A DNA stretch of 29,893 nt from Cyanobacteria bacterium P01_A01_bin.123 (GTDB lineage: Bacteria; Cyanobacteriota; Cyanobacteriia; Phormidesmidales; Phormidesmidaceae): the NCBI GenBank assembly GCA_039815185.1, contig JBCBZT010000073.1:1-29893 (forward strand), read 5' to 3'. The notes under the pieces were generated by a model. The model saw nothing but the letters and a program-made list of their open reading frames with translations. It did not search any database and was not told the DNA's origin. Both the position numbers and the translations under genes were made by a program. Positions 1 through 12,029 of the stretch are shown here, piece by piece (positions within the stretch are counted from its first letter, which is position 1; each line of letters begins with the position of its first letter).

Positions 1-139
1 GAGACCTGTGGATGAAAGCCCAGGGCTATAGTTGACAACTCAGGTTAGAGTTTGCTCCGTGATGCTGAACCGCCCTGTGCGGACCCGCTTGCAGGGTGGT
101 GTGGGAGGGGGGATTCGTGAGGATTCTCCCTATCCCGAT
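1..139 (+). mobile_element. 3' end of a group II intron, class C/IIC-like (end of D4, D5, D6, 3' splice site); 5' part lies outside the window
   Basis: D5 at 69-100 is ACCGCCCTGTGCGGACCCGCTTGCAGGGTGGT: 69-78 pairs with 91-100, CGC triad at 71-73, 2-nt bulge at 89-90, short upper stem. D6 at ~103-136 has a GTGA (GNRA) tetraloop and bulged A132, and the intron ends ...CCCTATCCCGAT at 139. This is the canonical IIC 3' architecture. Confidence 0.92.
3..35 (+). CDS. C-terminal end of the intron-encoded reverse transcriptase/maturase (partial, DLWMKAQGYS*)
   Basis: Frame 3 is open to TGA at 33-35, ~33 nt before D5. The tail resembles, from memory, C-termini of endonuclease-less class C IEPs. Only 10 codons are visible. 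Confidence 0.6.
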   Translation, partial: DLWMKAQGYS

Positions 140-1370
140 TGAGCGGATTACTGCCCGCGTGAGTGATACAGCTAACCCGATGCTTGCAGAACCCCCGTTA
201 CTAGAAGAGATTCAGCAGATTGCAGCTAGCCAAAATACGACTTTGGTGCAGTATTCTTGGGTTGACGGTCGGCCAGATGTAGACGAAAGTCTCGCCCCTC
301 AGCTTTATATCTGGGTGGTAAAACCCACTGGAGAAATCACCCTGAGACAAGGGGATCTGACGCTTTTAGATCGGCCCCTGGTAGACCTGGTGACGCTAAG
401 CCGTGAGTCTATCGGTGCCCGAGGTCGTGCTATCGGTGTCATAGCTGCTAATCCATTCAGTGAACCTAACGTTCCTAGCGCCTCCGAAAATCTCCAGCAA
501 CTCCATCGGTTGTTGATTGACCCCATTGCCGATTTGCTGCCCACCGACCCAGCAGCGCGGGTCACGATTATCCCCCATCAGGCCCTGTTTCTGGTTCCCT
601 TTCCAGCACTACAAGCGTCTGATGGTAGCTATTTGATTGATCGCCACACCCTCCTCAGTGGGCCATCAATTCAAGTCTTGGGCCTAACCGATAATTTACG
701 TCAGGCCAGCAGTCGAGCCCCCGATCGACAAGACGGGTCTGCCTTAGTGGTGGGTAATCCCACCATGCCCGTCTTACCTGCCCCAGCGGGAGAATCCGCC
801 CCGGTGCTCGCGGATCTTCCCGGTGCAGAACGAGAAGCTAGGGCGATCGCAGCCTTACTTAACACCACGGCTCTCATTGGTGACCAAGCCACCGAACCTG
901 CCGTTGTCGAAAAAATGCAGCAGGCCCACACCATTCACCTCGCCACCCACGGATTGCTCGACTGGGGCGATCCCCAAGCCCTCTACCAACAAGACTTTCC
1001 AGGTGCTGTGGCCCTAGCACCCACCCAAGACAGTGATGGCTTGCTGACTGCCGCCGAAATTTTAGACCTCGATCTTGAAGCTGATCTGGTCATTCTCAGT
1101 GCCTGCGACACCGGGCAAGGCCGCATCACTGGAGACGGGGTGATCGGCCTATCTCGGTCTTTGATGGTAGCCGGGGTACCGAGCGTAGTCGTATCCCTCT
1201 GGGCAGTCCCCGATGCACCCACCGCCAGCCTGATGACAGAATTTTATCGCCAGCTCGATCAAGGCCAAGACAAAGCCCAAGCCCTACGGCAAGCCATGCT
1301 TGCCACCCGCGCTCAGCACCCTAACCCACTAGACTGGGCTGCGTTTACATTGATTGGTGAAGCGGATTAG
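140..1370 (+). CDS. 3' exon of an intron-interrupted TPR-CHAT (caspase/HetF-like) protease; CHAT domain intact
   Basis: Motifs HLATHG, ILSACDTG, VSLWAVPD and WAAFTLIG are present, with close similarity to the C-terminal part of 3286..6426. The ORF-track start at 96 is a GTG inside intron D5, so it is probably not the true start. Confidence 0.88.
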
Positions 1371-1404
1371 GCTAAGAGGCGTGAGAGCGTAAAACTCATA
1401 AACC

Positions 1405-2148
1405 ATGACACCCTCTTTAGACATTCGCACTTCAACGGTTCAGGTTCACAGTGGTGCGGTTCAGATCCCGGCGTATTTAGCTGAACCCGTTGGGAAAGGC
1501 CCCTTTCCAGTGGTGGTGGTGATTCAGGAGATTTTTGGGGTGAATGTCCATATTCGTGAGGTAACGGCGCGCTTGGCGCGGCAGGGGTATGTGGCGATCG
1601 CGCCTGCAATTTATCACCGTCAGGTGGCTAATTTTGAAGTGGGCTATGGGCCAGAAGATGTGGCATTGGGACGCAAATATAAGGTTGAGACTCAGGCCGA
1701 TGAGTTGTTAAGTGATGTCCAGGGCTGCATTACCTATACCCAGGCAATGGCAAATACCAAAACTGGCGGGGTGGGCTGTATCGGGTTTTGCTTTGGGGGA
1801 CATGTGGCCTATTTGGCGGCAACGATACCGGGTGTGAAGGCAACGGCATCGTTTTATGGTGCGGGCATTACGACACTGAAGCCGGGGGGCGGTGACCCGA
1901 CGATTACTCTGACGCCTCAAATTACCGGCGTGCTGTATGGCTTTTTTGGCCAGGAAGATGCGCTGATTCCCAATCAGCAGGTAGATGAGATTGAGGCAGC
2001 GTTGAAAACCCATCAGATTACCCACCGGATTTTCCGTTACGCCGGGGCGGGGCACGGCTTTTTCTGCGATCGCCGGGAAAGCTATCAACCGGAGGCCGCA
2101 GCGGATGCATGGGAGCATGTCAAGCAGTTGTTTGTTGAAAATCTATAA
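1405..2148 (+). CDS. Dienelactone hydrolase family protein
   Basis: QEIFG motif, nucleophile GFCFGG, and catalytic His in AGHGFFCD. Confidence 0.93.
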   Translation: MTPSLDIRTSTVQVHSGAVQIPAYLAEPVGKGPFPVVVVIQEIFGVNVHIREVTARLARQGYVAIAPAIYHRQVANFEVGYGPEDVALGRKYKVETQADELLSDVQGCITYTQAMANTKTGGVGCIGFCFGGHVAYLAATIPGVKATASFYGAGITTLKPGGGDPTITLTPQITGVLYGFFGQEDALIPNQQVDEIEAALKTHQITHRIFRYAGAGHGFFCDRRESYQPEAAADAWEHVKQLFVENL

Positions 2149-2250
2149 CCCCAAAGGATTCAAAGTCTCGATAGAATGGAGAGCCCGGCGTTTTTAAACC
2201 CAGTGCCAGCGTATTATCCTTTTTTTCAGCCTGAAGCCACGGAGGCGACT

Positions 2251-3135
2251 TTGACCTTTTCCGCAGAAGATTTTGCTAAAGCCCTAGAGCAACACGATTA
2301 CCAATTCCAGAAGGGCAGCGTCGTCTCAGGCAAGGTGTTTAGCCATGGCTCTGATGGCGTCTATGTCGATATCGGCGGCAAAGCGGCGGCCTTTTTGCCC
2401 CTGAATGAGGTGGCGCTCAAGCAGTTTGACCCGGCCGATTTGCCCGAGATCTTGCCGCTAGACTCAGAGCGCCAGTTTCTCATCACCCGCGATCAAGATG
2501 AAGAAGGCCAGGTAGTCCTCTCCATCCGTCAACTGGAACTCAAAACGCTGTGGGAAGAGCTGAAAGACCAGCAGGACAATAACGAAACTCTGACGGTCAA
2601 AGTGACGGGGAACAATAAAGGCGGCGTGGTAGTAGATGTCCATGGGTTGCGGGGCTTTGTACCGCGATCGCATCTCTCCCCAGTCCCCGAAGACCTTGCG
2701 AGCCTAATTGGATCGACACTGACGGTTGCCTTTTTGGATGTGCGGCCAGATGACAAAAAGTTAGTGTTATCCCAGCGGATTGCTGCCCGCACGACTACGA
2801 TGAGTCGGTTAGAGCAAGGGCAGCTAATCGAAGGCACTGTGGTTAACATCAAGCCTTTCGGTATTTTCGTGGAGTTCGATGGCGTCACTGGCTTGCTGCA
2901 CATCAAACAAATCAGCAAAAACTATGTGGATTCGCTGCCAAATCTGATTCACATTGGCGATTCGATCAAAGCCGTTATCGTCAGTCTTGATGATGTGCAG
3001 CGCCGGATTTCTCTCTCGACTAAGGTACTAGAAAAGCATCCCGGTGAGATTTTGCATGATTTTGCCAAGGTGATGGCGGAGGCAGAGGAGCGATCGGCGG
3101 CGGTGGGTGACTTATTAGCTGAGAGCGATCTATAG
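2251..3135 (+). CDS. rps1b: S1 RNA-binding domain protein (cyanobacterial ribosomal protein S1 homolog B)
   Basis: Three S1 domains (GVYVDIGGK, GLRGFVPRSHL, GVTGLLHIKQIS). The likely start is TTG at 2251, 5 nt after GGAGG (2241-2245), giving MTFSAEDFAKALEQHDY. The ORF track extends to 2176. Confidence 0.88.
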   Translation: MTFSAEDFAKALEQHDYQFQKGSVVSGKVFSHGSDGVYVDIGGKAAAFLPLNEVALKQFDPADLPEILPLDSERQFLITRDQDEEGQVVLSIRQLELKTLWEELKDQQDNNETLTVKVTGNNKGGVVVDVHGLRGFVPRSHLSPVPEDLASLIGSTLTVAFLDVRPDDKKLVLSQRIAARTTTMSRLEQGQLIEGTVVNIKPFGIFVEFDGVTGLLHIKQISKNYVDSLPNLIHIGDSIKAVIVSLDDVQRRISLSTKVLEKHPGEILHDFAKVMAEAEERSAAVGDLLAESDL

Positions 3136-3140
3136 GATAA

Positions 3141-3197
3141 GTCGAAGATCCTCGTAGCAATTGGGCTGCATTTGCCTTGATTGGGGCAATGGAATGA
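3141..3197 (+). pseudogene. Isolated 3'-terminal remnant of a CHAT gene (VEDPRSNWAAFALIGAME*)
   Basis: Translates to the CHAT C-terminal motif with a stop at the same position as WAAFTLIGEAD* (ends 1370) and RNWAAFTLIGAAD* (ends 6426). It is preceded by an in-frame TAA at 3138-3140. Confidence 0.8.
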
Positions 3198-3285
3198 CGT
3201 TTATCGCGATCTGAAACAGGCCCGGAATTTTGGTCTCTGAGCGCGAATAAAGAATACGGGAGACACTACTGCGAGGTTAGGTCGT

Positions 3286-6200
3286 ATGCAAGGGCGCGGG
3301 TGGCGGTTTCTAGTCGCCGGACTGGCCATACTGAGCGGAATGCCGTTGATGGCGTCATCCAATACGCCGCAAACTCCAGCGGATACGGTGCTGATTGAGG
3401 TTGAAGGGACGCTGACAGTCGGGGATGAAATCCTGAGCGATGGTAGTCTCTACGATGTTTATGCCTTTGAAGGGGAAGCCGGACAGGTTTTTACCATTCA
3501 AATGACCAGCAGTGCCTTCGATACTTATCTGATTTGGGTCGATAGTGGTGGGCAAACGCTGGGTGAAAACGACGACACTAGCCTGGATGATACTAATTCG
3601 ACGCTGACGTTGGTATTGCCTGAGACCGGGCAATATCGTGTGTTTGCCAATGCCTTCGCCAATACTGGCCGGGGCAATTATCAGTTGACCATTACATCAG
3701 TTAGCGATCGCGATGCGCTGGGGCTAGAAGCCTTTCGCATCTTTGAACTGGGTTTAGACTTGCGTAGTGCTGGGCAAATTGAAGCGGCATTGCAGGCTTG
3801 GCAGCAATCTCTGGCCCTTTACCAAATCCTAGAAGCCCCTCAGGGTATTGCTTATTCACTCAGTAACTTGGGCGTGGCGTATGGAGCCTTGGGGCAAAAT
3901 CAACAGGCAATCGTCTACTATAGCCAAGCCTTAGAGATTGTTCGGGAGCTAGGCGATCGCCCTAATGAGCTTATTGCTTTAAGCAACCTGGGGCTGGCCC
4001 ATAGTGCCTTGGGTGACTATCAGCAGGCCATTGACTTCCATCGGCAACAGTTAGCCATTGCTCGCGACAATAGCGTTCGCGATGCATTTCCAGCAGAAAG
4101 TCGCCGCAGTGAAGCCGATGCCCTCAATAGTTTGGGGTTGGCCTACGATGCCCTCGGGCAGTATCCAGAAGCCATTGATCATCATCAGCAGGCATTAGCA
4201 ATTGAACGCGAGCTCGACAATCGTCAGGGAGAAGCCGGGTCGCTCAACAATTTGGGGCTGACCTACAGTTCCTTAGGGCAATACCCAGAGGCAATTGAGG
4301 TTTATCAGCAGTCGTTAGCGATTAAACAGGCCATTGGCGATCGTCAGGGTGAAGCCAGCACGTTGGGCAATTTGGGCAACGCGTACGATGCCTTGGGGCA
4401 GTTTCAACGGGCGATTGAGTTTCATCAGCAATCTCTGGCAATCGATCGAGAAGTAGGCGATCGCCAGGGAGAGGCCAATTCCTTGGGCAATTTGGGCATT
4501 ACCTACAACGCGATTGGGCAATATCAACGGGCGATTGAGTTTCATCAGCAGTCATTGGCAATCGACCGAGAAATCGGCAGCCGCCAAGGAGAATCTGACT
4601 CCCTCGGGAATTTAGGCAATGTGTATTACGCCTTGGGTGACTATCAGCAGGCCATTGAATTTTACCAGCAGTTTTTAGCGCTAGCAGGTGAATTAGGCGA
4701 TCGCGGCGGGGAAGCCACGGCCCTGGGCAACCTGGGTATTGTTTATGAAGTGCTGGGTGAATACGCCCAGGCGATTGAGTTTCATCAGCAAAACCTAGCC
4801 ATTAGCCGAGAACTGGGAAGCCGTCTGGGAGAAGCCGATGCCCTCAGCAATCTGGGGTTGGTCTACAACGCCCTGGGGCAACACCAGCAGGCGATTGAAT
4901 TGCATCAACAGGCGATCGCCATCGATCGAGAAGTGGGCGATCGCCAGGGGGAAGCCATTTCCCTTAACAATTTGGGATTGACTTTTCTCAGAACGAATCA
5001 ACTGGCCGAGGCGGAAACAGCGTTGACGCAGTCGATTACAACCTACGAGGCGCTACGGGCGGATCTATCTGATATCCAACTGATCTCCCTAGCCGATACC
5101 CAAACAACCGCTTATGAGCTGCTAATGCAGACTTTAACCGCCCAGGGAAATCCCAGTGCAGCCCTGGCTATCAGTGAACGGGGGCGTGCCCAAGCTTTTG
5201 CCCTGCAACTAGCCCTACGTCAGGATGACAGCAGTACTGAAGCCCCGACAACCTTTCCGACTCTTGCCGAGATCCAGACCATTGCTCGCCGCCAAAATGC
5301 TACTCTGGTCGAATATGCGCTGATTGACCAGCAAGATCTTTACATCTGGGTCGTCCAGCCTTCCGGCGAGGTTACTTTTCGTGCGTTAGAGCTAGATGGC
5401 TTGAATGGTTTCCAAGGCGCGATCGCAACCCTTGACACCCCGATCTACCGTGGCGGCTCCCCATCTGCTCTCGATGTACTGGTGACCGACTCACGGCGGG
5501 GCATTAGCGTAGTTGAAGAAACAGGCAGCAATAATAGCTCCGAATACCTCAAAGACTTGCATCAGCTTTTGATCGATCCGATTGCAGACCTGTTGCCCAC
5601 CGATCCCGAGGCCAATGTAGTATTCGTTCCTCAGGGCAGCTTGTTTCTAGTGCCCTTTGCCGCTTTGCAAGATGCCAACGGCACATACCTGATCGAAAAG
5701 CATACGGTTTTAACTGCCCCCTCAATTCAGGTCTTGGGCTTAGCTGCCAGGGAGGAGCAAGTCGCAACCAGAGGCCAGCCATTGGCAGACGCCTTGATTG
5801 TGGGGAATCCTGTCATGCCTGAAGTTTGGATTCCAGCAGAAAATGGCCTCCAAGAAATTCAGCTTGCGCCTTTACCCGGAACCGAAATGGAAGCATTAGC
5901 CATTGGCGGCTTTCTAAATACATCGCCATTGATTGGCACCCAGGCGACCGAAGCCCAGGTTAAGCAGCAAATGCCTGAGGTTCAACTGATCCACCTAGCA
6001 ACCCATGGTCTGCTTGAATATGGCGACCCGCAATCTTCTGGCATATTCGACGTGCCTGGGGCGATCGCCCTGACACCTGGTGATGGCGAAGACGGCCTGC
6101 TCACCGCCAGCGAAATTTTGGAGATGGATTTACAGGCCCAACTGGCGATTCTTAGCGCCTGTGATACGGGCCTCGGGCGGATTACCGGAGATGGGGTAGT

Positions 6201-6426
6201 TGGCCTGTCTCGTTCCTTGATTACGGCTGGGGTTCCAAGCGTCATCGTTTCCCTCTGGGCCGTGCCTGATGCACCTACGGCAGCGCTAATGACGGAATTT
6301 TACAATCAGCTCCAGGCAGGGCAGCCCAAAGCCCAAGCGCTACGACAGGCAATGTTAATAACGTTGGAGAATCATCCAGAACCCCGCAACTGGGCTGCGT
6401 TTACCCTAATTGGAGCAGCAGATTGA
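3286..6426 (+). CDS. Probably exported PPC + TPR-array + CHAT caspase-like protease
   Basis: Basic/hydrophobic N-terminus; PPC domain (YDVYAFEGEAGQ...FDTYL...ENDD...LPETGQYRV); about 11 TPRs of ~40 aa; ERGRAQAF; HLATHG and ILSACDTG dyad. Confidence 0.93.
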   Translation: MQGRGWRFLVAGLAILSGMPLMASSNTPQTPADTVLIEVEGTLTVGDEILSDGSLYDVYAFEGEAGQVFTIQMTSSAFDTYLIWVDSGGQTLGENDDTSLDDTNSTLTLVLPETGQYRVFANAFANTGRGNYQLTITSVSDRDALGLEAFRIFELGLDLRSAGQIEAALQAWQQSLALYQILEAPQGIAYSLSNLGVAYGALGQNQQAIVYYSQALEIVRELGDRPNELIALSNLGLAHSALGDYQQAIDFHRQQLAIARDNSVRDAFPAESRRSEADALNSLGLAYDALGQYPEAIDHHQQALAIERELDNRQGEAGSLNNLGLTYSSLGQYPEAIEVYQQSLAIKQAIGDRQGEASTLGNLGNAYDALGQFQRAIEFHQQSLAIDREVGDRQGEANSLGNLGITYNAIGQYQRAIEFHQQSLAIDREIGSRQGESDSLGNLGNVYYALGDYQQAIEFYQQFLALAGELGDRGGEATALGNLGIVYEVLGEYAQAIEFHQQNLAISRELGSRLGEADALSNLGLVYNALGQHQQAIELHQQAIAIDREVGDRQGEAISLNNLGLTFLRTNQLAEAETALTQSITTYEALRADLSDIQLISLADTQTTAYELLMQTLTAQGNPSAALAISERGRAQAFALQLALRQDDSSTEAPTTFPTLAEIQTIARRQNATLVEYALIDQQDLYIWVVQPSGEVTFRALELDGLNGFQGAIATLDTPIYRGGSPSALDVLVTDSRRGISVVEETGSNNSSEYLKDLHQLLIDPIADLLPTDPEANVVFVPQGSLFLVPFAALQDANGTYLIEKHTVLTAPSIQVLGLAAREEQVATRGQPLADALIVGNPVMPEVWIPAENGLQEIQLAPLPGTEMEALAIGGFLNTSPLIGTQATEAQVKQQMPEVQLIHLATHGLLEYGDPQSSGIFDVPGAIALTPGDGEDGLLTASEILEMDLQAQLAILSACDTGLGRITGDGVVGLSRSLITAGVPSVIVSLWAVPDAPTAALMTEFYNQLQAGQPKAQALRQAMLITLENHPEPRNWAAFTLIGAAD
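4100..5000 (+). repeat. 120-bp-period tandem coding repeats (40-aa TPR units)
   Basis: An identical 27-mer occurs at 4404-4430 and 4524-4550. 4441-4469 and 4921-4949 match at 28/29 nt. The GDRQGEA..LGNLG..Y motif recurs every 120 nt. Confidence 0.9.
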
Positions 6427-6608
6427 AGTGCTGCCGGGGTTGCGGCTTCCTTTCCCTACTTTTTTCACTCTCAGCAACCCCTGATTAATCAGGTGTTAGT
6501 TCAAAATAGTGATAGACGAAACAACTCACAACGCCCATAATTTGTTTCGAGCAACAATGGGAGCGGTTCTTTCATCACAACATCCGGACTCAATGAGGAC
6601 GAGCAGCC

Positions 6609-7214
6609 ATGACTGCAACCCCATCAACCCTAACTAAATCTGCATCGTTACCCCGATACCGATGGACGACCCAGCAGTATCACGCCGCTGTTAGAGCAGG
6701 ATTTTTGGGTGATGGACGGCTTGAACTATTAGATGGAGATATCGTTACTGTGCCCGTCCCCGATCCGATCCATGAAGCCGCCATCAGACGGTTACTGAGA
6801 TATCTAATCTCGGTGTTGGGGCAAAGGGCACACCTTGAGAAGGTCATGCCGATAGCACTTTCTGAAAACTCAGAACCCATCCCTGATATTGCCGTGGTGA
6901 AGCTGTCAGAGAATGACTACGCGACATCGCACCCCACTCCACAAGAGACTTACCTCCTGATCGAAATTGCCAACAGCAACCCCGAACGCGATATCAAAGC
7001 TAAACGGTTGATCTACGCTCAAGCTGGTATCCTCGAATACTGGGTATTTGACTTGGACGCCCGTGAGATGAGGGTCTTCCGAGCACCTAAAGGTGAAGCG
7101 GGTACGGCAGACTACGGCATTGATACAGTGTGGAATACAGATACGGTCAGTCTTTTAGCTTTCCCCGACATTGAACTGTCAGCCACGACACTCAAGCAGC
7201 TAGCTTTCAATTGA
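6609..7214 (+). CDS. Uma2 family (DUF820) putative PD-(D/E)XK endonuclease
   Basis: RLELLDGDIV, PIPDIAVV, LLIEIA, KRLIYAQAGILEYWVFD. Confidence 0.92.
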   Translation: MTATPSTLTKSASLPRYRWTTQQYHAAVRAGFLGDGRLELLDGDIVTVPVPDPIHEAAIRRLLRYLISVLGQRAHLEKVMPIALSENSEPIPDIAVVKLSENDYATSHPTPQETYLLIEIANSNPERDIKAKRLIYAQAGILEYWVFDLDAREMRVFRAPKGEAGTADYGIDTVWNTDTVSLLAFPDIELSATTLKQLAFN

Positions 7215-7308
7215 GATTGAGTCGTAACTGGCGACTGCGTCGTTGCCCCACCTAAGAGCGCAACGGAACACGCTTACTTCACGCCTTCGATTTTGTTGTT
7301 CTCGGGGA

Positions 7309-10300
7309 TTACAAGCCATTGCCGATCAACACAAACGGTGCCCAGTAATAGGGATGGCTTAGCGCATTGCTAGCTTCTGTGGCGTTTCTGCCGTCTTCCA
7401 GGCGAATGGCGATGCCTGCCCGTTCACCGCTGAGGACAGTTTCGTCACCGTTAATCAGTGCGGTTTGTGCCCATTGCAGGGCTTCTGCTTTGCCCATGCC
7501 TCGATCTAGCGCTGTGTAAAACGCGTTCATTAGCACCTGTGTACCGCCATCGCTCACTTTCCACAAAGAGGCAACCACGGCCCGTGCCCCGGCCCTTTGA
7601 AACTGATAGCCCAAGCCCAAGATTTCTTCACCATTGCCAAATGCGCCGCCTAGCCCCGTTTCACAGGCGCTGAGTACCACCAAATCCACATTGCTCAAAT
7701 TCCAGTCTTTGATATCGGCAAGGGTGGGGGTGTCGCCATTGCCAAACACGATGAATGACGATTCTGGCTCTCCTGGCACGAAGGCGGCATGGGTAGCGAA
7801 GTGGACAATGCTGTGATCGTTCATTTGAGGTCGCACAGCCGCGAGGCTAAACTGCTCGTCAATCAAGGGGGTTGCCATGGGAACCGTGGAGGCCAGTAAT
7901 TCCACCTCTCGGCCCGCAAAGGGCAAGCCTGGAAAGTTTTGAGTCTCGCCGTCTACTTCAATGGCGTAGTTCACTGTGTTATCAGCAAAGGCGGCGGCCA
8001 AAACGTCAACGGCGGCAGTGGGTTGAGTCTCTAAATCTTGTAGCGAGCGGGCCGTAATGTTGTTGACCTGGTAGCGCTGAATCAGCCATTGGTCGCCATC
8101 GTGCAGGGCTGCTAGGGGAACATAGCGCAGTTGACCATCAGGGGCATAGATGATTGTGTCTACACCAGCCTGTTGCAAATCCGCTTCAAGGGGGCGGATT
8201 AACCAGTCATAGAGAATTTGGGCGGGAGTTTCGGCGTTACGACTGGGGGAACGCAGGGCTTGGCGAAAATCTGAGATGGCGCGGTTGAGGTCTGAGCGGT
8301 CAATTTCAACGGTTCGACGTAGGGGGGGTGAGTTGGGGGTGGTGATCACCAGTTCGAGGCGATCTTCCAAAATCAAGGGATAGAGGATGGCGGCGTTGAG
8401 TTGTCCCAGATCGTCTTGGAGGGCAGATAAATCTTCTAAATTGAGGTTTTGTCGCTGGGCGGTGCGGCTGAGTTGATCCAGCAACCCTTGAATATCCTCA
8501 CTGTCGAGGAAGGCGTTGAATTGGGCATTGATCTCTTGCTGTAGCATGACAAGCTGATCAATTCGCTGGGTTTGTTCCGGCGATCGCTGGGTGGCTTCAA
8601 TTTGACGCAGTTGGGCCAGTTCTTGGCCGATTTCGATGGCGGTGTTTTGCAGTTCGTCGTAGCGTTCTAGAATGACCTGTTCGGGACGCAGGATTGTGAA
8701 TGTACTCTCACCGCCACGAACTCCGCGCAGATAGTTGTTGAGTTCTTGCACTTTTAACAAGTCGAGCACTTGCTGGGCTTCTAAGATCCGATCTTGCTGG
8801 AGCAGGAGGTCAGCCAGGGTACGGTAGTCGGCTTCAAAGGTTTCGACAAAGGTGAGTTGCACATCTAAAGGGAGTTCGCGAGTGTTGCCACGAATAGACT
8901 CGCGAACTTCGACCGAATGCTTGAGAAAAACAATCGCCAGTTCTGGCTTATCAAGATTGAGTAGGGCCTGCCCGATTTTCCCCAGGACTTCCCCTTCGCC
9001 TAAGGGCACCTCAATTTCCTGAAATAGAACTAAGGCCGTATAGTAGGATTCGATCGCTTGCTCATAATCTGCTAAGCCCGCATGGGCATCACCAATATTG
9101 AGCAGGGAACGGGCAATGCCAAAGCGATCGCGCAAGGGTTGTTTGAGTTCAATCGATTGCTGATTTAACGTGATTGATTGTTGATATTGGCCGATCTTGA
9201 GATGAGCCAAACCTAGATATTCTAAGGCGTTTGCTTGCCTGACAATATTATTGCCCTGTCGAAATATCTCTAGCGCTTCAGATAACGGGGCGATCGCCTG
9301 TTGCGGATTATCCAGATAGATTTGAGAGATGCCAAGATTACCCAGCATGGTGGCTTCTAAATCATCATCTTCGAGATTGATCGCCAGATCTAAACCTTGA
9401 TTAAATAGTTCAGCTCCCTTAGCAGATTGGCCGAGCAACGTGTATGCAGAGCCTAACGCCTCTAAGGAGTAGATCTGCTCTTCAAGATCTTCTAGTTCTT
9501 CGTAGAGTTCTAAGGAGCTAGAGAGGGAAGAGACCGCTTGCTGATAATCGCCCAACCATGTGTAAATCACCCCCAACCCCCTTAGCGTGAAGGCTTCTCC
9601 TGAGGTATTGCCACTGCGTTCAAAGATTTCAAGCGCATCCTGAAATGGATTTTCTGCCTCACGAAAATCATTATTAAAATAGCTTTCAATACCGCCAATT
9701 AACGGTTGAATAATTTCAATTTGCTCAGCAATCAATCCAGCCGTACCTTGCATAACTTCTATATCAGCTGTGTATTGATCTATATCTGGCAATTGTGTTC
9801 GTACTTCGCTGTCTAGACCTTCAAAATCTTGCTGCAATATTTGTAAATCTTGCCCGACTGCATTGATACTTACGAGCAAAGGAGAAACTTGGGATTGAGC
9901 GGATTGCCACAATCCAACAGCACCTTCAAAATCTCCAAAATTATAGCGCTGCTGTCCGGCAGTAAAAGTCTGTTCAACCTGTTCAATACCAATAGTGAGA
10001 TCCGTTAGATTTGCTGCAATCGGAATCAAAGTCTGAATGATCAGTAGAAGGTCTGTCGCCTGTTGAAAATCAACTGATCTCCCAAGGGTAGCTAAGCTTT
10101 CATCTTCACTAAGAGCTTGCAGATCGCTTTCGAGTGAACGGAGCGTGAGCAGTGATGCATCAAGTCTCTCTCCTGAGGATTCAAATTTTGTCAGCGCAGA
10201 CTGATACTGCTCCCCATTGAAATCATCAATCCCTGATTGAAACAGTTCAGTAATTTGATTGACTTCTAATGCCCAAGATACAAAATCATTGAAAAATAAT

Positions 10301-10818
10301 GTCACGCCGTCAAGTCGATTGAGACCTGATTCTAAATCGCTAATTCTCCTTAAAGTTATTTCAATTTGGTTAGCTTCAATGTCATCACTTGATTCAACTT
10401 GGAGCCGCAATTGGTGGATTTCGTCAATCAGGCTTCTAATGATTCCATTAGCCGATTGAAATGTTTGTGCAGAGCGTTCATACTGATCGTCTTGAAATAA
10501 TCTAACCCCTTCGAGTAGTGGTTCTTCGATGGCTCTGATGCGGGCTGCCAAATTGAGGAGTTGAGTCTGAATCGCTTCAGGCGGCTCATTGTCTGTGACT
10601 TCAGCATTCGTGATTTCGTCAGCCTCAACGGCTTGGACAACTAACTGATAATGCCCTGCATCTCCAGCATTGGCTTGTTTGATCTGTGGCGCTGGGCTCA
10701 ACATCTCCTGATCGTTAATATCAAGGCGATTCGATTTCGCAGGGCTAGGCAATGCTGATGGGATAACCGATAGCGCTAACGCTGAGATTAATAGACTGAA
10801 AAACCGGAGAGTAGTCAT
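7309..10818 (-). CDS. Probably exported TPR-CHAT protease with an N-terminal long-helix repeat region
   Basis: Signal-like N-terminus MTTLRFFSLLISALALSVIPSA; about 7 TPRs; EAQQVLDLLKVQEL; HFATHA and VVLSACETG dyad; HPYYWAPFVLIGNGL C-terminus. Confidence 0.92.
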   Translation of the reverse strand: MTTLRFFSLLISALALSVIPSALPSPAKSNRLDINDQEMLSPAPQIKQANAGDAGHYQLVVQAVEADEITNAEVTDNEPPEAIQTQLLNLAARIRAIEEPLLEGVRLFQDDQYERSAQTFQSANGIIRSLIDEIHQLRLQVESSDDIEANQIEITLRRISDLESGLNRLDGVTLFFNDFVSWALEVNQITELFQSGIDDFNGEQYQSALTKFESSGERLDASLLTLRSLESDLQALSEDESLATLGRSVDFQQATDLLLIIQTLIPIAANLTDLTIGIEQVEQTFTAGQQRYNFGDFEGAVGLWQSAQSQVSPLLVSINAVGQDLQILQQDFEGLDSEVRTQLPDIDQYTADIEVMQGTAGLIAEQIEIIQPLIGGIESYFNNDFREAENPFQDALEIFERSGNTSGEAFTLRGLGVIYTWLGDYQQAVSSLSSSLELYEELEDLEEQIYSLEALGSAYTLLGQSAKGAELFNQGLDLAINLEDDDLEATMLGNLGISQIYLDNPQQAIAPLSEALEIFRQGNNIVRQANALEYLGLAHLKIGQYQQSITLNQQSIELKQPLRDRFGIARSLLNIGDAHAGLADYEQAIESYYTALVLFQEIEVPLGEGEVLGKIGQALLNLDKPELAIVFLKHSVEVRESIRGNTRELPLDVQLTFVETFEADYRTLADLLLQQDRILEAQQVLDLLKVQELNNYLRGVRGGESTFTILRPEQVILERYDELQNTAIEIGQELAQLRQIEATQRSPEQTQRIDQLVMLQQEINAQFNAFLDSEDIQGLLDQLSRTAQRQNLNLEDLSALQDDLGQLNAAILYPLILEDRLELVITTPNSPPLRRTVEIDRSDLNRAISDFRQALRSPSRNAETPAQILYDWLIRPLEADLQQAGVDTIIYAPDGQLRYVPLAALHDGDQWLIQRYQVNNITARSLQDLETQPTAAVDVLAAAFADNTVNYAIEVDGETQNFPGLPFAGREVELLASTVPMATPLIDEQFSLAAVRPQMNDHSIVHFATHAAFVPGEPESSFIVFGNGDTPTLADIKDWNLSNVDLVVLSACETGLGGAFGNGEEILGLGYQFQRAGARAVVASLWKVSDGGTQVLMNAFYTALDRGMGKAEALQWAQTALINGDETVLSGERAGIAIRLEDGRNATEASNALSHPYYWAPFVLIGNGL

Positions 10819-10925
10819 AAGACGGGGCTAAGTAAACATTTTGAATTCGACATCTTTATTCTGCTATCAAGGTAAATCATAGGAAGCCCCGTTGGTTTTA
10901 GCACCGAATTTCCCTTAAGGACGCC

Positions 10926-12029
10926 TTATTCCCCTTGAATGAAGTCTGCATAGTTAAAGTCTTCGGATAGGTTTTTAGATGTTTTACACTTCCCCAGTGC
11001 TTCGTGGTAATAATGCAGTGCGATTGCGTGATGACCTAACCCTTCATGTAAGCGTCCCAACCGATTCAAAATCATTGCGGTTCCATAGCTTGTTTCATCA
11101 TGCTGTAACTTTTCTAGTGCCTCTAGATAGTAATTGATCGCTAAATCCTTGTGATTAGTGTGTTCGCATACTCTGGCAATTTGTCCCAGCAAGATACTCT
11201 CTTCTCGTACCACATTGACTTGTTGGCCAAACTCACGACAAGCTTCCAACGCAGCCTGATAGCATCCCAGCGCAAACAGAAATTCCTGCCGATGAACATA
11301 GACTTGCCCCATACAGGCTAAGGTCATTGATTCACCAAGTAAGTCTTTTAGGCTGTTTCGCAAGCTCAAGGCTTGCTCAAAGTGGTGCAGCGCTTGGCCA
11401 TGACGTTGGAGACGATAGCAGGTGATACCCAGGTTGTGTAGTGCTGCTGCTCGATAGGTGCGATCGCCAGATTCTTCAAACATTTCTACGGCTGCCTGGC
11501 TGTAAGTGTGGCTGCGTTCGTAATTTTGGAGCTTGCGATAGATCAATCCCAGGCCGTTCAAACAAAGCCCCATTTGGGTAACGCGTTGTTGCTGGGTAGC
11601 CTGGTACAAGGCTCGCTCGTAATAAGTCAGGGCTTGCTCATAGTTGGCCGTTACATGGTAATGATTGGCAATGCCCAACAGCGCTTCCGGGGTAGAAGGC
11701 GACTCAAAATCTTCAATCTCGGCTGGGGTTGTGATTTGGGCTTCAGCCGCTTGTTGGAGTTCACAGTCTTGGTAGATAAACCCGATTCCGTTCAAAGCCA
11801 TTTCCATCTTTGCGCCGTCATTGATTTGCTGGGCACCCATCAATAACTTTTGAAACGTTTCCAGGGCTAACTCAATTTGACCTTTATCAAACTGATGCCA
11901 GCCTAAGGTGTAGAGGGTAGATCCATCGTCAACCAGAGTCGTCCGGGGCGCGATCGCTTTATGAATCAAAGCCACCAGAAGGTGTAGCGGAGTGGTGATG
12001 GTGAAGCAAGCGATGAATGTGGGGGCCAT
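10926..12029 (-). CDS. TPR-only protein
   Basis: Multiple ~40-aa TPRs (ALNGIGFIY, CLNGLGLIY, ALHNLGITCY, ILNRLGRLH). AGGAG lies upstream of the ATG. No catalytic domain is recognisable. Confidence 0.85.
   Translation of the reverse strand: MAPTFIACFTITTPLHLLVALIHKAIAPRTTLVDDGSTLYTLGWHQFDKGQIELALETFQKLLMGAQQINDGAKMEMALNGIGFIYQDCELQQAAEAQITTPAEIEDFESPSTPEALLGIANHYHVTANYEQALTYYERALYQATQQQRVTQMGLCLNGLGLIYRKLQNYERSHTYSQAAVEMFEESGDRTYRAAALHNLGITCYRLQRHGQALHHFEQALSLRNSLKDLLGESMTLACMGQVYVHRQEFLFALGCYQAALEACREFGQQVNVVREESILLGQIARVCEHTNHKDLAINYYLEALEKLQHDETSYGTAMILNRLGRLHEGLGHHAIALHYYHEALGKCKTSKNLSEDFNYADFIQGE

What the first reader, a model, noticed from the sequence alone, without database searches (positions are those of the whole stretch)
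1..200. Class C group II intron apparently inserted inside a caspase-like TPR-CHAT gene, possibly splicing-gated
Seen: complete D5/D6 and a 3' splice site at 139. The next bases, T-GAG-CGG-ATT-ACT-GCC-CGC, continue in frame (phase 2) as xERITAR..., which aligns with the position just after ERGRAQAF in the paralog at 3286..6426. The downstream CHAT domain has no stops and keeps its His/Cys dyad. Established: IIC introns normally target sites next to stem-loops (terminators, or integron attC sites with a TTGT/T target), not coding sequence. Inference: the 5' exon should end ...AF-V, i.e. TTT GT|T GAG, which reproduces the TTGT/T target of IIC-attC introns. Full-length protease would then need splicing, separating the TPR sensor from the protease unless the intron is removed. 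The unspliced RNA could also yield a sensor-less CHAT from the in-frame ATG at 180.
Basis: partly seen in the sequence, partly recalled or inferred. Interest (0 to 1): 0.8.

Follow-up and report, generated by a model that had tools for sequence, protein, structure and literature searches.

The report
Stray IIC-attC intron interrupts TPR-CHAT gene
A mobile self-splicing intron that normally lands in integron recombination sites has recently jumped, off target, into the middle of one of a cyanobacterium's many protease genes; close relatives lack the insertion, so it looks like a fresh gene disruption rather than an evolved splicing switch.

Summary
Window 1-139 is the 3' end of a group II intron, identical at 8 contig ends. 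The predicted 5' exon lies on contig C103: 540 TPR codons ending in TTGT. Joined to window 140-1370 it gives a stop-free 950-aa TPR-CHAT, colinear with an intact orthologue. The intron belongs to the IIC-attC lineage by targets and by a proxy IEP tree; its own ORF is unassembled.

A splicing gate is not supported. An independent run carries the same gene without the intron. Two sister copies sit antisense in genes, where they cannot be spliced out. A third of all TTGT/T sites lie in sense ORFs, so one sense hit in three is expected by chance. The site has no hairpin, which another IIC intron needs for protein-free exon ligation. The genome has about 25 CHAT loci, and one run shows a deletion allele.

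Best reading: a recent off-target retrotransposition that lowers or removes expression. Splicing is untested because no RNA holder was listed. It is a modest exception to a 2006 statement that IIC introns avoid ORFs; two more sense-in-gene cases turned up elsewhere. The scan earlier noted a similar in-frame insertion by another intron class (e1-1113882).

The parts
1..139 (+). 3' end of a group IIC-attC intron. The intron body lies beyond the contig start and is not in the assembly; its 5' 135 nt are on G000:C103, 135 to 1, minus strand.
   Evidence: Identical at 8 contig ends; Rfam; 5' end on C103
3..35 (+). Last 10 codons and stop of the intron-encoded RT/maturase
   Evidence: Frame 3 translation; same tail on the 445-aa IEP of the close G005 copy L052, which is TIGR04416 with RVT_1 and GIIM only
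69..100 (+). Domain 5, with CGC at 71-73 (read as the catalytic triad from recall) and a two-base bulge
   Evidence: D5/D6 identical in G005
102..139 (+). Domain 6 with bulged A132, and the 3' splice site after AT at 138-139
   Evidence: all 8 copies diverge after position 139-141
140..140 (+). IBS3 (T), first base of the 3' exon; it completes the split Val codon
   Evidence: All 8 3' exons and the C129 copy begin with T
140..1370 (+). 3' exon: residues 541-950 of a TPR-CHAT protease. The 5' exon (540 codons, TPRs, N-terminal hydrophobic stretch at residues 15-33) is G000:C103, 1757 to 136, minus strand.
   Evidence: empty allele in run X6
180..182 (+). Internal in-frame ATG; polymorphic (ATC in X6, Ile in G001), with no Shine-Dalgarno-like run seen upstream by eye
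948..950 (+). His of the HLATHG motif (putative catalytic His; role recalled from CHAT/caspase families)
1104..1106 (+). Cys of the LSACDT motif (putative catalytic Cys; role recalled)
841..850 (+). 10-bp direct repeat holding the HIP1 octamer (name recalled), shared with the 5' exon; right end of a 1,020-nt in-frame exon deletion seen in one contig of run X2
3286..6426 (+). Intact paralogous TPR-CHAT gene (1046 aa), one of about 25 CHAT loci in the genome
7309..10818 (-). Second intact TPR-CHAT paralogue in the window (1169 aa)

Best explanation
An active, endonuclease-less IIC-attC retro-intron has recently multiplied in this strain. It mostly reverse-splices into attC bottom strands, using a 4-base EBS1/IBS1 pairing (ACAA with TTGT), one IBS3 base (T) and the attC stem. 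Its sequence demand is so small that some copies land off target. One landed in the sense strand of a 950-aa TPR-CHAT gene at a TTGT/T site that weakly mimics the right arm of attC but has no stem. Shown: boundaries, target, reading frame, empty allele, sister insertions. Inferred: transcripts that keep the intron stop 36 codons into it (a 576-aa TPR-only product); some may be spliced with maturase help, but ligation is probably poor without a 5' stem-loop, and introns lower host mRNA even when spliced. The net effect is a knock-down or knock-out of a redundant gene that the strain tolerates. It is not a regulatory device.
For: 8 identical 3' ends and near-identical 5' ends (5 of 7 with no difference in 135 nt) mean a very recent spread; contig depth in X1 is 308 on the intron against 36 on the exon. 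All 8 5' exons end in TTGT. Four have attC-type long stems (background fraction 0.002-0.015), C47 is borderline (0.063) and C21 keeps only the right arm. The genome has a full integron integrase (TIGR02249, 476 bits, cut-off 265). The proxy IEP groups with class 1 integron introns, 100/99. Empty allele: a 20,044-nt contig in run X6 (another study) lies on 139-1392 with 54 differences, and its loose end is the C103 exon end; X5 breaks at the same base (letters not shown). The orthologue in G001 is intact, with the same divergent neighbour. Off-target sisters: antisense in a 526-aa amine oxidase gene (C106/C11) and antisense in a small repeat-protein frame (C121). 6,484 of 18,890 TTGT/T sites lie in sense ORFs of 150 aa or more, so 1 sense hit in 3 is expected. 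No hairpin: as RNA the last 40 exon bases fold worse than all 200 shuffles; long-range pairing is 0.10, below the background median. B.h.I1 without its stem-loop gave no ligated exons in vitro (PMC1702495, section 12 read). B.h.I1 spliced at 25% in E. coli and lowered reporter mRNA (PMC6003770, section 7 read). About 25 CHAT loci. A deletion allele removing the site appears in X2.
Against: Neither exon carries a stop or frameshift, which fits a gene still in use as well as a very young insertion. The no-hairpin result was obtained without protein; the same paper says maturase-assisted and in vivo splicing of B.h.I1 is accurate and that some splicing occurs without the stem-loop (PMC1702495 passages). 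From recall only, not read (not held): work on GsI-IIC may show the hairpin matters less for protein-assisted splicing than for integration. The last 30 exon bases fold in the best 4.7% of TTGT/T sites as DNA (not corrected for 80% G+C), and the site ranks in the top 4.6% on an attC right-arm matrix, so it is not a wholly random target. EBS1 of this particular copy was not seen; it is taken from the C21 and C123 copies. Three off-target events are too few for a statistical test.
Confidence: 0.75

Rival explanations
1. Near-silent insertion: the maturase, supplied in cis or by about 8 sister copies, splices the intron accurately and often enough that the full-length TPR-CHAT is still made. The insertion is tolerated for that reason and is unregulated.
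For: Boundaries, D5, D6 and the bulged A are intact; the family is active; both exons are intact; IBS1 and IBS3 match EBS1 of sister copies; maturase-assisted IIC splicing is reported as accurate (PMC1702495 passages).
Against: No 5'-exon stem-loop; loss of ligation without it in vitro; low in vivo efficiency and mRNA loss for B.h.I1; antisense sisters show that plain disruptions are tolerated in this strain.
Confidence: 0.13
2. Selected splicing gate: the cell uses intron retention or removal to choose between a full TPR-CHAT and separate TPR and CHAT pieces, perhaps with a free protease made from ATG 180.
For: The site falls between the TPR region and the CHAT-containing module. Condition-dependent splicing has a precedent in Ll.LtrB (PMC7293003, abstract seen).
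Against: Strain-specific and very young. No second case at this motif: 4 of 4 metagenome pattern hits were not introns, none of 78 scored cyanobacterial junctions showed a CHAT frame by eye, and 0 of 13 paralogues with the motif have TTGT/T at that codon. ATG 180 is not conserved and is not tied to the insertion. No sigma-70-like promoter was found in the proxy intron (weak test).
Confidence: 0.04
3. The two exons are no longer neighbours, or the copy is incomplete: recombination between identical intron copies, or a truncated insertion, has separated or broken the gene, so nothing can be spliced.
For: The assembly does not bridge C103 and C127; there are 8 3' ends but only 7 contig-end 5' ends, and no partner was found for C121; no listed contig in X1 spans the junction.
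Against: Both boundaries are exact and reconstitute the empty site seen in X6; the missing middle is what a collapsed repeat gives; the other ends pair up plausibly, 5 attC-type 5' ends with 5 TA-starting 3' ends.
Confidence: 0.08

Closest known systems
Group IIC-attC introns (S.ma.I2 and the introns of class 1 integrons; PMC3001079 part 1 of 6 and passages read, PMC7923331 passages read)
   Same: TTGT/T target, GTACG 5' end as in the two integron introns fetched, short D5, no endonuclease domain in the proxy IEP, most copies in attC bottom strands, same IEP clade.
   Different: This copy sits in the sense strand of a protein-coding gene, with no attC stem and no R box. The described members lie antisense in cassette arrays or, by PMC7923331, after putative terminators.
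Terminator-targeting IIC introns (B.h.I1; PMC1702495 abstract, section 12 and passages read)
   Same: Class C architecture with a 4-base IBS1 and one IBS3 base.
   Different: No terminator stem-loop before the site. The two plasmid introns seen here after terminator-like hairpins fall outside the attC clade. [quoted passage not shown]
Gene-interrupting bacterial introns such as Ll.LtrB in the ltrB relaxase gene (PMC6003770 abstract and section 7, PMC7293003 abstract) and sense-strand conditional targetron disruptions (PMC3898094 passages)
   Same: Sense insertion in a CDS; host protein depends on splicing; the intron is expected to lower host mRNA.
   Different: Those are IIA/IIB introns with long cognate homing sites. 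Here the site is ectopic, polymorphic and not shared with paralogues or relatives.
Cyanobacterial TPR-CHAT caspase-like proteases (Pfam PF12770 with TPR families)
   Same: TPR array followed by CHAT with His and Cys motifs; 52% and 76% identity of the two exons to the G001 orthologue.
   Different: Interrupted by the intron in this strain. No solved structure matched by sequence, so substrate and control are unknown.

Membership tests
Group II intron | D5 and D6 with bulged A and AY 3' end | tested here: met
   Rfam RF00029 over gathering; fold z -4.2
Group II intron | GUGYG-type 5' end | tested here: met
   GTACG variant at all 8 5' ends, the same as in two class 1 integron introns
Group II intron | Intact RT/maturase ORF in this copy | not testable with these tools
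   Intron body absent from the assembly; only the last 10 codons seen; proxy L052 is intact
Group II intron | Splicing of this copy in vivo | not testable with these tools
   No RNA holder listed
Class C (IIC) | IEP without endonuclease domain, in class C | tested here: met
   On the proxy only: RVT_1 and GIIM, no HNH family reported; tree. The proxy is 90% identical over the 5' 281 nt of the C21 copy and 94% over the window's 139 nt.
Class C (IIC) | Short EBS1/IBS1 pairing | tested here: met
   ACAA in the loop of a stem-loop at intron position about 215 in the C21 and C123 copies pairs with TTGT; not seen in the C103 copy itself; absence of EBS2 not tested
IIC-attC lineage | TTGT/T target consensus | tested here: met
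   8 of 8 5' exons, 8 of 8 contig-end 3' exons
IIC-attC lineage | IEP in the clade of integron-associated introns | tested here: met
   Proxy in a 10-row clade with L196 and L197, 100/99, 16 rows; the outgroup branch is long, so the root is unsure
IIC-attC lineage | Family members inserted in attC bottom strands | tested here: met
   4 of 8 own 5' exons clearly, 2 more partly; 61 of 78 cyanobacterial junctions above the background 90th percentile for a long stem; IntI present
IIC-attC lineage | This copy inserted in an attC or other stem-loop | tested here: not met
   This concerns the site, not the lineage of the element.
TPR-CHAT protease | TPR repeats, CHAT domain, His and Cys motifs | tested here: met
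Splicing-regulated host gene | Insertion conserved across strains | tested here: not met
   Empty allele in X6, probably X5; intact orthologue in G001
Splicing-regulated host gene | Condition-dependent exon ligation | not testable with these tools
   No RNA data

The most novel reading that the evidence does not exclude
IIC-attC introns can integrate into, and be accurately spliced out of, ordinary coding mRNA with no 5' stem-loop once the maturase is present. Because attC-borne copies face against cassette transcription, this sense copy in a host gene would then be the transcribed source copy that fed the strain's burst of about 8 identical insertions, while making a caspase-like protease depend on splicing. 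The strain without the insertion (X6) shows the intron at roughly the depth of a single locus (10.9 against 12.8), which fits but does not show direction.
Probability: 0.15. Interest if true: 0.6.

Novelty: new member of a known kind. Interest (0 to 1): 0.3.

Why it matters
It is a documented natural exception to the rule that class C introns stay out of ORFs. It comes with its own control, an intron-less allele about 96% identical. That pair can test whether a IIC intron ligates exons in vivo without a 5' stem-loop, and whether sense insertions act as source copies for bursts. As host biology it most likely matters little: one of about 25 CHAT loci disrupted in one strain.

Tried and rejected
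No RNA holder was listed for window 140-3200; this says nothing about expression. The intron body was sought in the assembly: the 3 RVT_1 hits are other elements, and the best (C8) is a different, stop-containing intron. A metagenome scan for the same host motif followed by a class C 5' end gave 4 matches, none followed by intron sequence. A hairpin at the site was tested as DNA and RNA and rejected, apart from a weak, G+C-driven 30-base fold. The first tree used a mis-framed outgroup and was rebuilt; the attC clade had 100/99 in both. In one search, 15 of 30 loci gave no full IEP under my filter and were left out. No 5' partner was found for the C121 end. Pfam on the cyanobacterial sense frames L260, L265 and L277 found nothing. 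No PDB chain matched the 3' exon. The promoter scan of the proxy intron found none. The GsI-IIC paper (PMC6082379) was not held; Quiroga 2008 and 2009 and Leon and Roy 2009 were seen only as reference-list entries, so non-attC or in-gene targets described there or in their supplements may already cover this case. Ten library searches listed no title on a IIC-attC intron inside a coding sequence or a CHAT gene; most listed papers were not opened.

Full report
Observation. The window begins at base 1 of contig C127. Bases 68-139 match Rfam Intron_gpII above its gathering score. D5 and D6 fold better than all 200 shuffles, with a bulged A at 132 and an AT end at 138-139. Frame 3 gives the last ten residues of an intron-encoded protein and a stop at 33-35. 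From T140 a frame stays open to 1370 and holds a CHAT domain with its His and Cys motifs. The same intron end is 100% identical, over the 95-139 bases held, at 8 contig ends, so the assembly broke at a collapsed repeat and the intron body is missing.

The 5' exon. A motif search found 8 intron 5' ends: 7 at contig ends and one internal copy on C129. All 8 follow TTGT. On C103 the upstream frame is open for 550 codons, 540 from the first ATG, and is TPR-rich. The other seven give 4-39 codons in that phase. Joined in a script, C103 exon and window 140-1370 give 950 residues without a stop. They align without a gap at the junction to an intact 994-aa orthologue in G001 (same genus), at 52% and 76% identity, and G001 has the same divergent neighbour as C103. 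Read-through of unspliced RNA would end 36 codons into the intron, at 576 aa.

What the intron is. The closest complete copy (G005, L052; 1,940 nt; 90% and 94% identical at the two ends) encodes a 445-aa RT/maturase with RVT_1 and GIIM and no other Pfam family. In a 16-row tree it groups with two class 1 integron introns at 100/99, apart from two introns that follow terminator-like hairpins. This test is on a proxy. A stem-loop near intron position 215 exposes ACAA, the partner of TTGT, in the C21 and C123 copies. TTGT/T on the attC bottom strand is the described target of IIC-attC introns (PMC7923331, passages; PMC3001079, part 1 and passages). In this genome four 5' exons form attC-type long stems, one is borderline and one keeps only the right arm. 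Five of the eight 3' exons start with TA, as an attC core would, and a full integron integrase is present. In relatives, 45 of 401 genomes carry the 5' motif, this one included. Of 79 junctions retrieved, 54 end in TTGT and 14 in GTGT; 78 had enough flank to score, and 61 of these exceed the background 90th percentile for a long stem.

The site is off target. The CHAT site has long-range pairing of 0.10 against a background median of 0.22. As RNA its last 40 bases fold worse than all 200 shuffles. In its favour as a mimic, the last 30 bases fold in the best 4.7% of TTGT/T sites as DNA, uncorrected for 80% G+C, and it ranks 861 of 18,846 on a matrix of attC right arms. Two sister copies are also off target, both antisense to a gene: one splits a 526-aa flavin amine oxidase frame across C106 and C11, the other ends a 123-codon frame on C121 whose other half was not found. 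Antisense insertions cannot be spliced out (PMC3898094, passages). Of 18,890 TTGT/T sites, 6,484 lie in sense ORFs of at least 150 aa and 7,359 in antisense ones, 153 counted in both. One sense and two antisense hits is what unselected landing would give, though three events allow no test.

The insertion is young and polymorphic. Four of 13 listed runs were laid on window 1-1500. In X6, from a study other than the possible source, a 20,044-nt contig lies on 139-1392 with 54 differences, and its loose end before 139 is the end of the C103 exon with one synonymous change. That is the empty TTGT/T allele, and it confirms the exon pairing independently. X6 also holds the intron end, with 2 differences, in a separate contig. 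In X5 a 664-nt contig stops matching at 139 and runs on for 437 bases; the letters were not shown, so an empty allele there is inferred. In X1 contig depth is 308 on the intron and 36 on the exon, in line with about 8 copies, though the tool warns that depth is no copy number. In X2 one contig (depth 9.35, against 2.9 for the skipped part) joins the 5' exon directly to window 841 across a 10-base direct repeat. This removes 1,020 exon bases in frame, residues about 435-774, including the insertion site and the first part of the CHAT domain. It is a single contig in one run, but it suggests the locus is dispensable. The genome has about 25 CHAT loci; none of 13 paralogues with the same motif has TTGT/T at that codon.

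Is it recurrent? Eight of the 121 had a sense frame of 95 codons or more. I gave two of these to Pfam, and both interrupt a recognisable gene in sense: a short-chain dehydrogenase (L193) and a type I restriction specificity subunit (L101, junction TCGT). Four of the other six looked attC-like by eye and two were not classified. So sense-in-gene landing is a rare but repeated outcome for this lineage. No second CHAT case was found: the 4 metagenome pattern hits were not introns, and no CHAT frame was seen among the 78 cyanobacterial junctions (Pfam on three of the longest sense frames was blank).

How it most likely works. Shown: exact boundaries, target, frame, empty allele, sister insertions. 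Inferred: the RNP reverse-spliced into single-stranded DNA at a weak attC mimic, as endonuclease-less introns use replication forks (PMC4424553, passages). Full-length protease now needs splicing. For B.h.I1, loss of the 5' stem-loop abolished exon ligation in protein-free reactions (PMC1702495, section 12), and in E. coli it spliced at 25% and lowered reporter mRNA (PMC6003770, section 7). Against this, the first paper reports accurate maturase-assisted and in vivo splicing, and some splicing without the stem-loop. I put knock-down or knock-out at 0.75, near-silent splicing at 0.13, a broken or rearranged locus at 0.08 and a selected gate at 0.04. The ATG at 180 does not help the gate idea: it is ATC in X6, Ile in G001, and unchanged in the probably empty X5 allele. 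A product from it would lack the N-terminal hydrophobic stretch at residues 15-33. No RNA data were available.

Novelty. The element is an ordinary member of the IIC-attC lineage, and introns inside bacterial genes are well known in other classes. The unusual point is the site. [quoted passage not shown] Ten library searches listed no title on such a case, but the main IIC-attC target papers were not readable here. The value is a natural inserted/empty allele pair for testing hairpin-free IIC splicing and the source-copy idea. Interest 0.3.

Noticed in passing
G000:C129, 8501 to 7811, minus strand (L005): A complete 691-nt ORF-less IIC-attC intron in an attC site; 5 differences from the C103 copy in the first 135 nt but a different D5/D6. 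Copies of about 690-760 nt are common in the surveys (L062, L067, L075, L096, L106, L126), suggesting spread in trans.
   Followed up: partly
Run X2, contig on window 841-1372: In-frame 1,020-nt exon deletion between 10-bp repeats that contain the HIP1 octamer (name recalled); a possible case of repeat-mediated deletion in a natural population.
   Followed up: partly
G000:C106 end / C11 start (L007, L006): Sister intron copy inserted antisense in a 526-aa flavin amine oxidase gene, an unsplicable knock-out.
   Followed up: yes
G000:C121 end (L008): Sister copy antisense in a small repeat-rich protein frame with a paralogue on C82; no matching intron 5' end in the assembly.
   Followed up: partly
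G000:C36 697-1659 (L283); C14 1101-1611; C5 3406-3567: A complete integron integrase on C36, and integrase fragments within 1-3.5 kb of intron ends on C14 and C5.
   Followed up: partly
G000:C8 1-2300 (L001) and C126 end: A second, unrelated group II intron whose ORF has internal stops and, by eye, a C-terminal HNH-like part; read as CL-type from recall.
   Followed up: no
L193 and L101: IIC-attC-type introns inserted in sense inside a short-chain dehydrogenase gene (Thiopseudomonas MAG) and a type I restriction specificity gene (Halochromatium glycolicum).
   Followed up: partly
L052, L075, L100, L138, L149: Junctions shifted by one base (5' exon ends in G, 3' exon starts TT) within the attC core; in L052 the EBS1 loop differs as well.
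   Followed up: no
L063, L069 (G058); L067 (G027); L064 (G005): Related introns antisense in transposase-like frames (by eye), one between short repeated palindrome-like elements, and one whose ORF is replaced by a transposase-like frame.
   Followed up: no
window 3286-12029: Two further intact TPR-CHAT genes and a TPR gene cluster next to the interrupted one.
   Followed up: no
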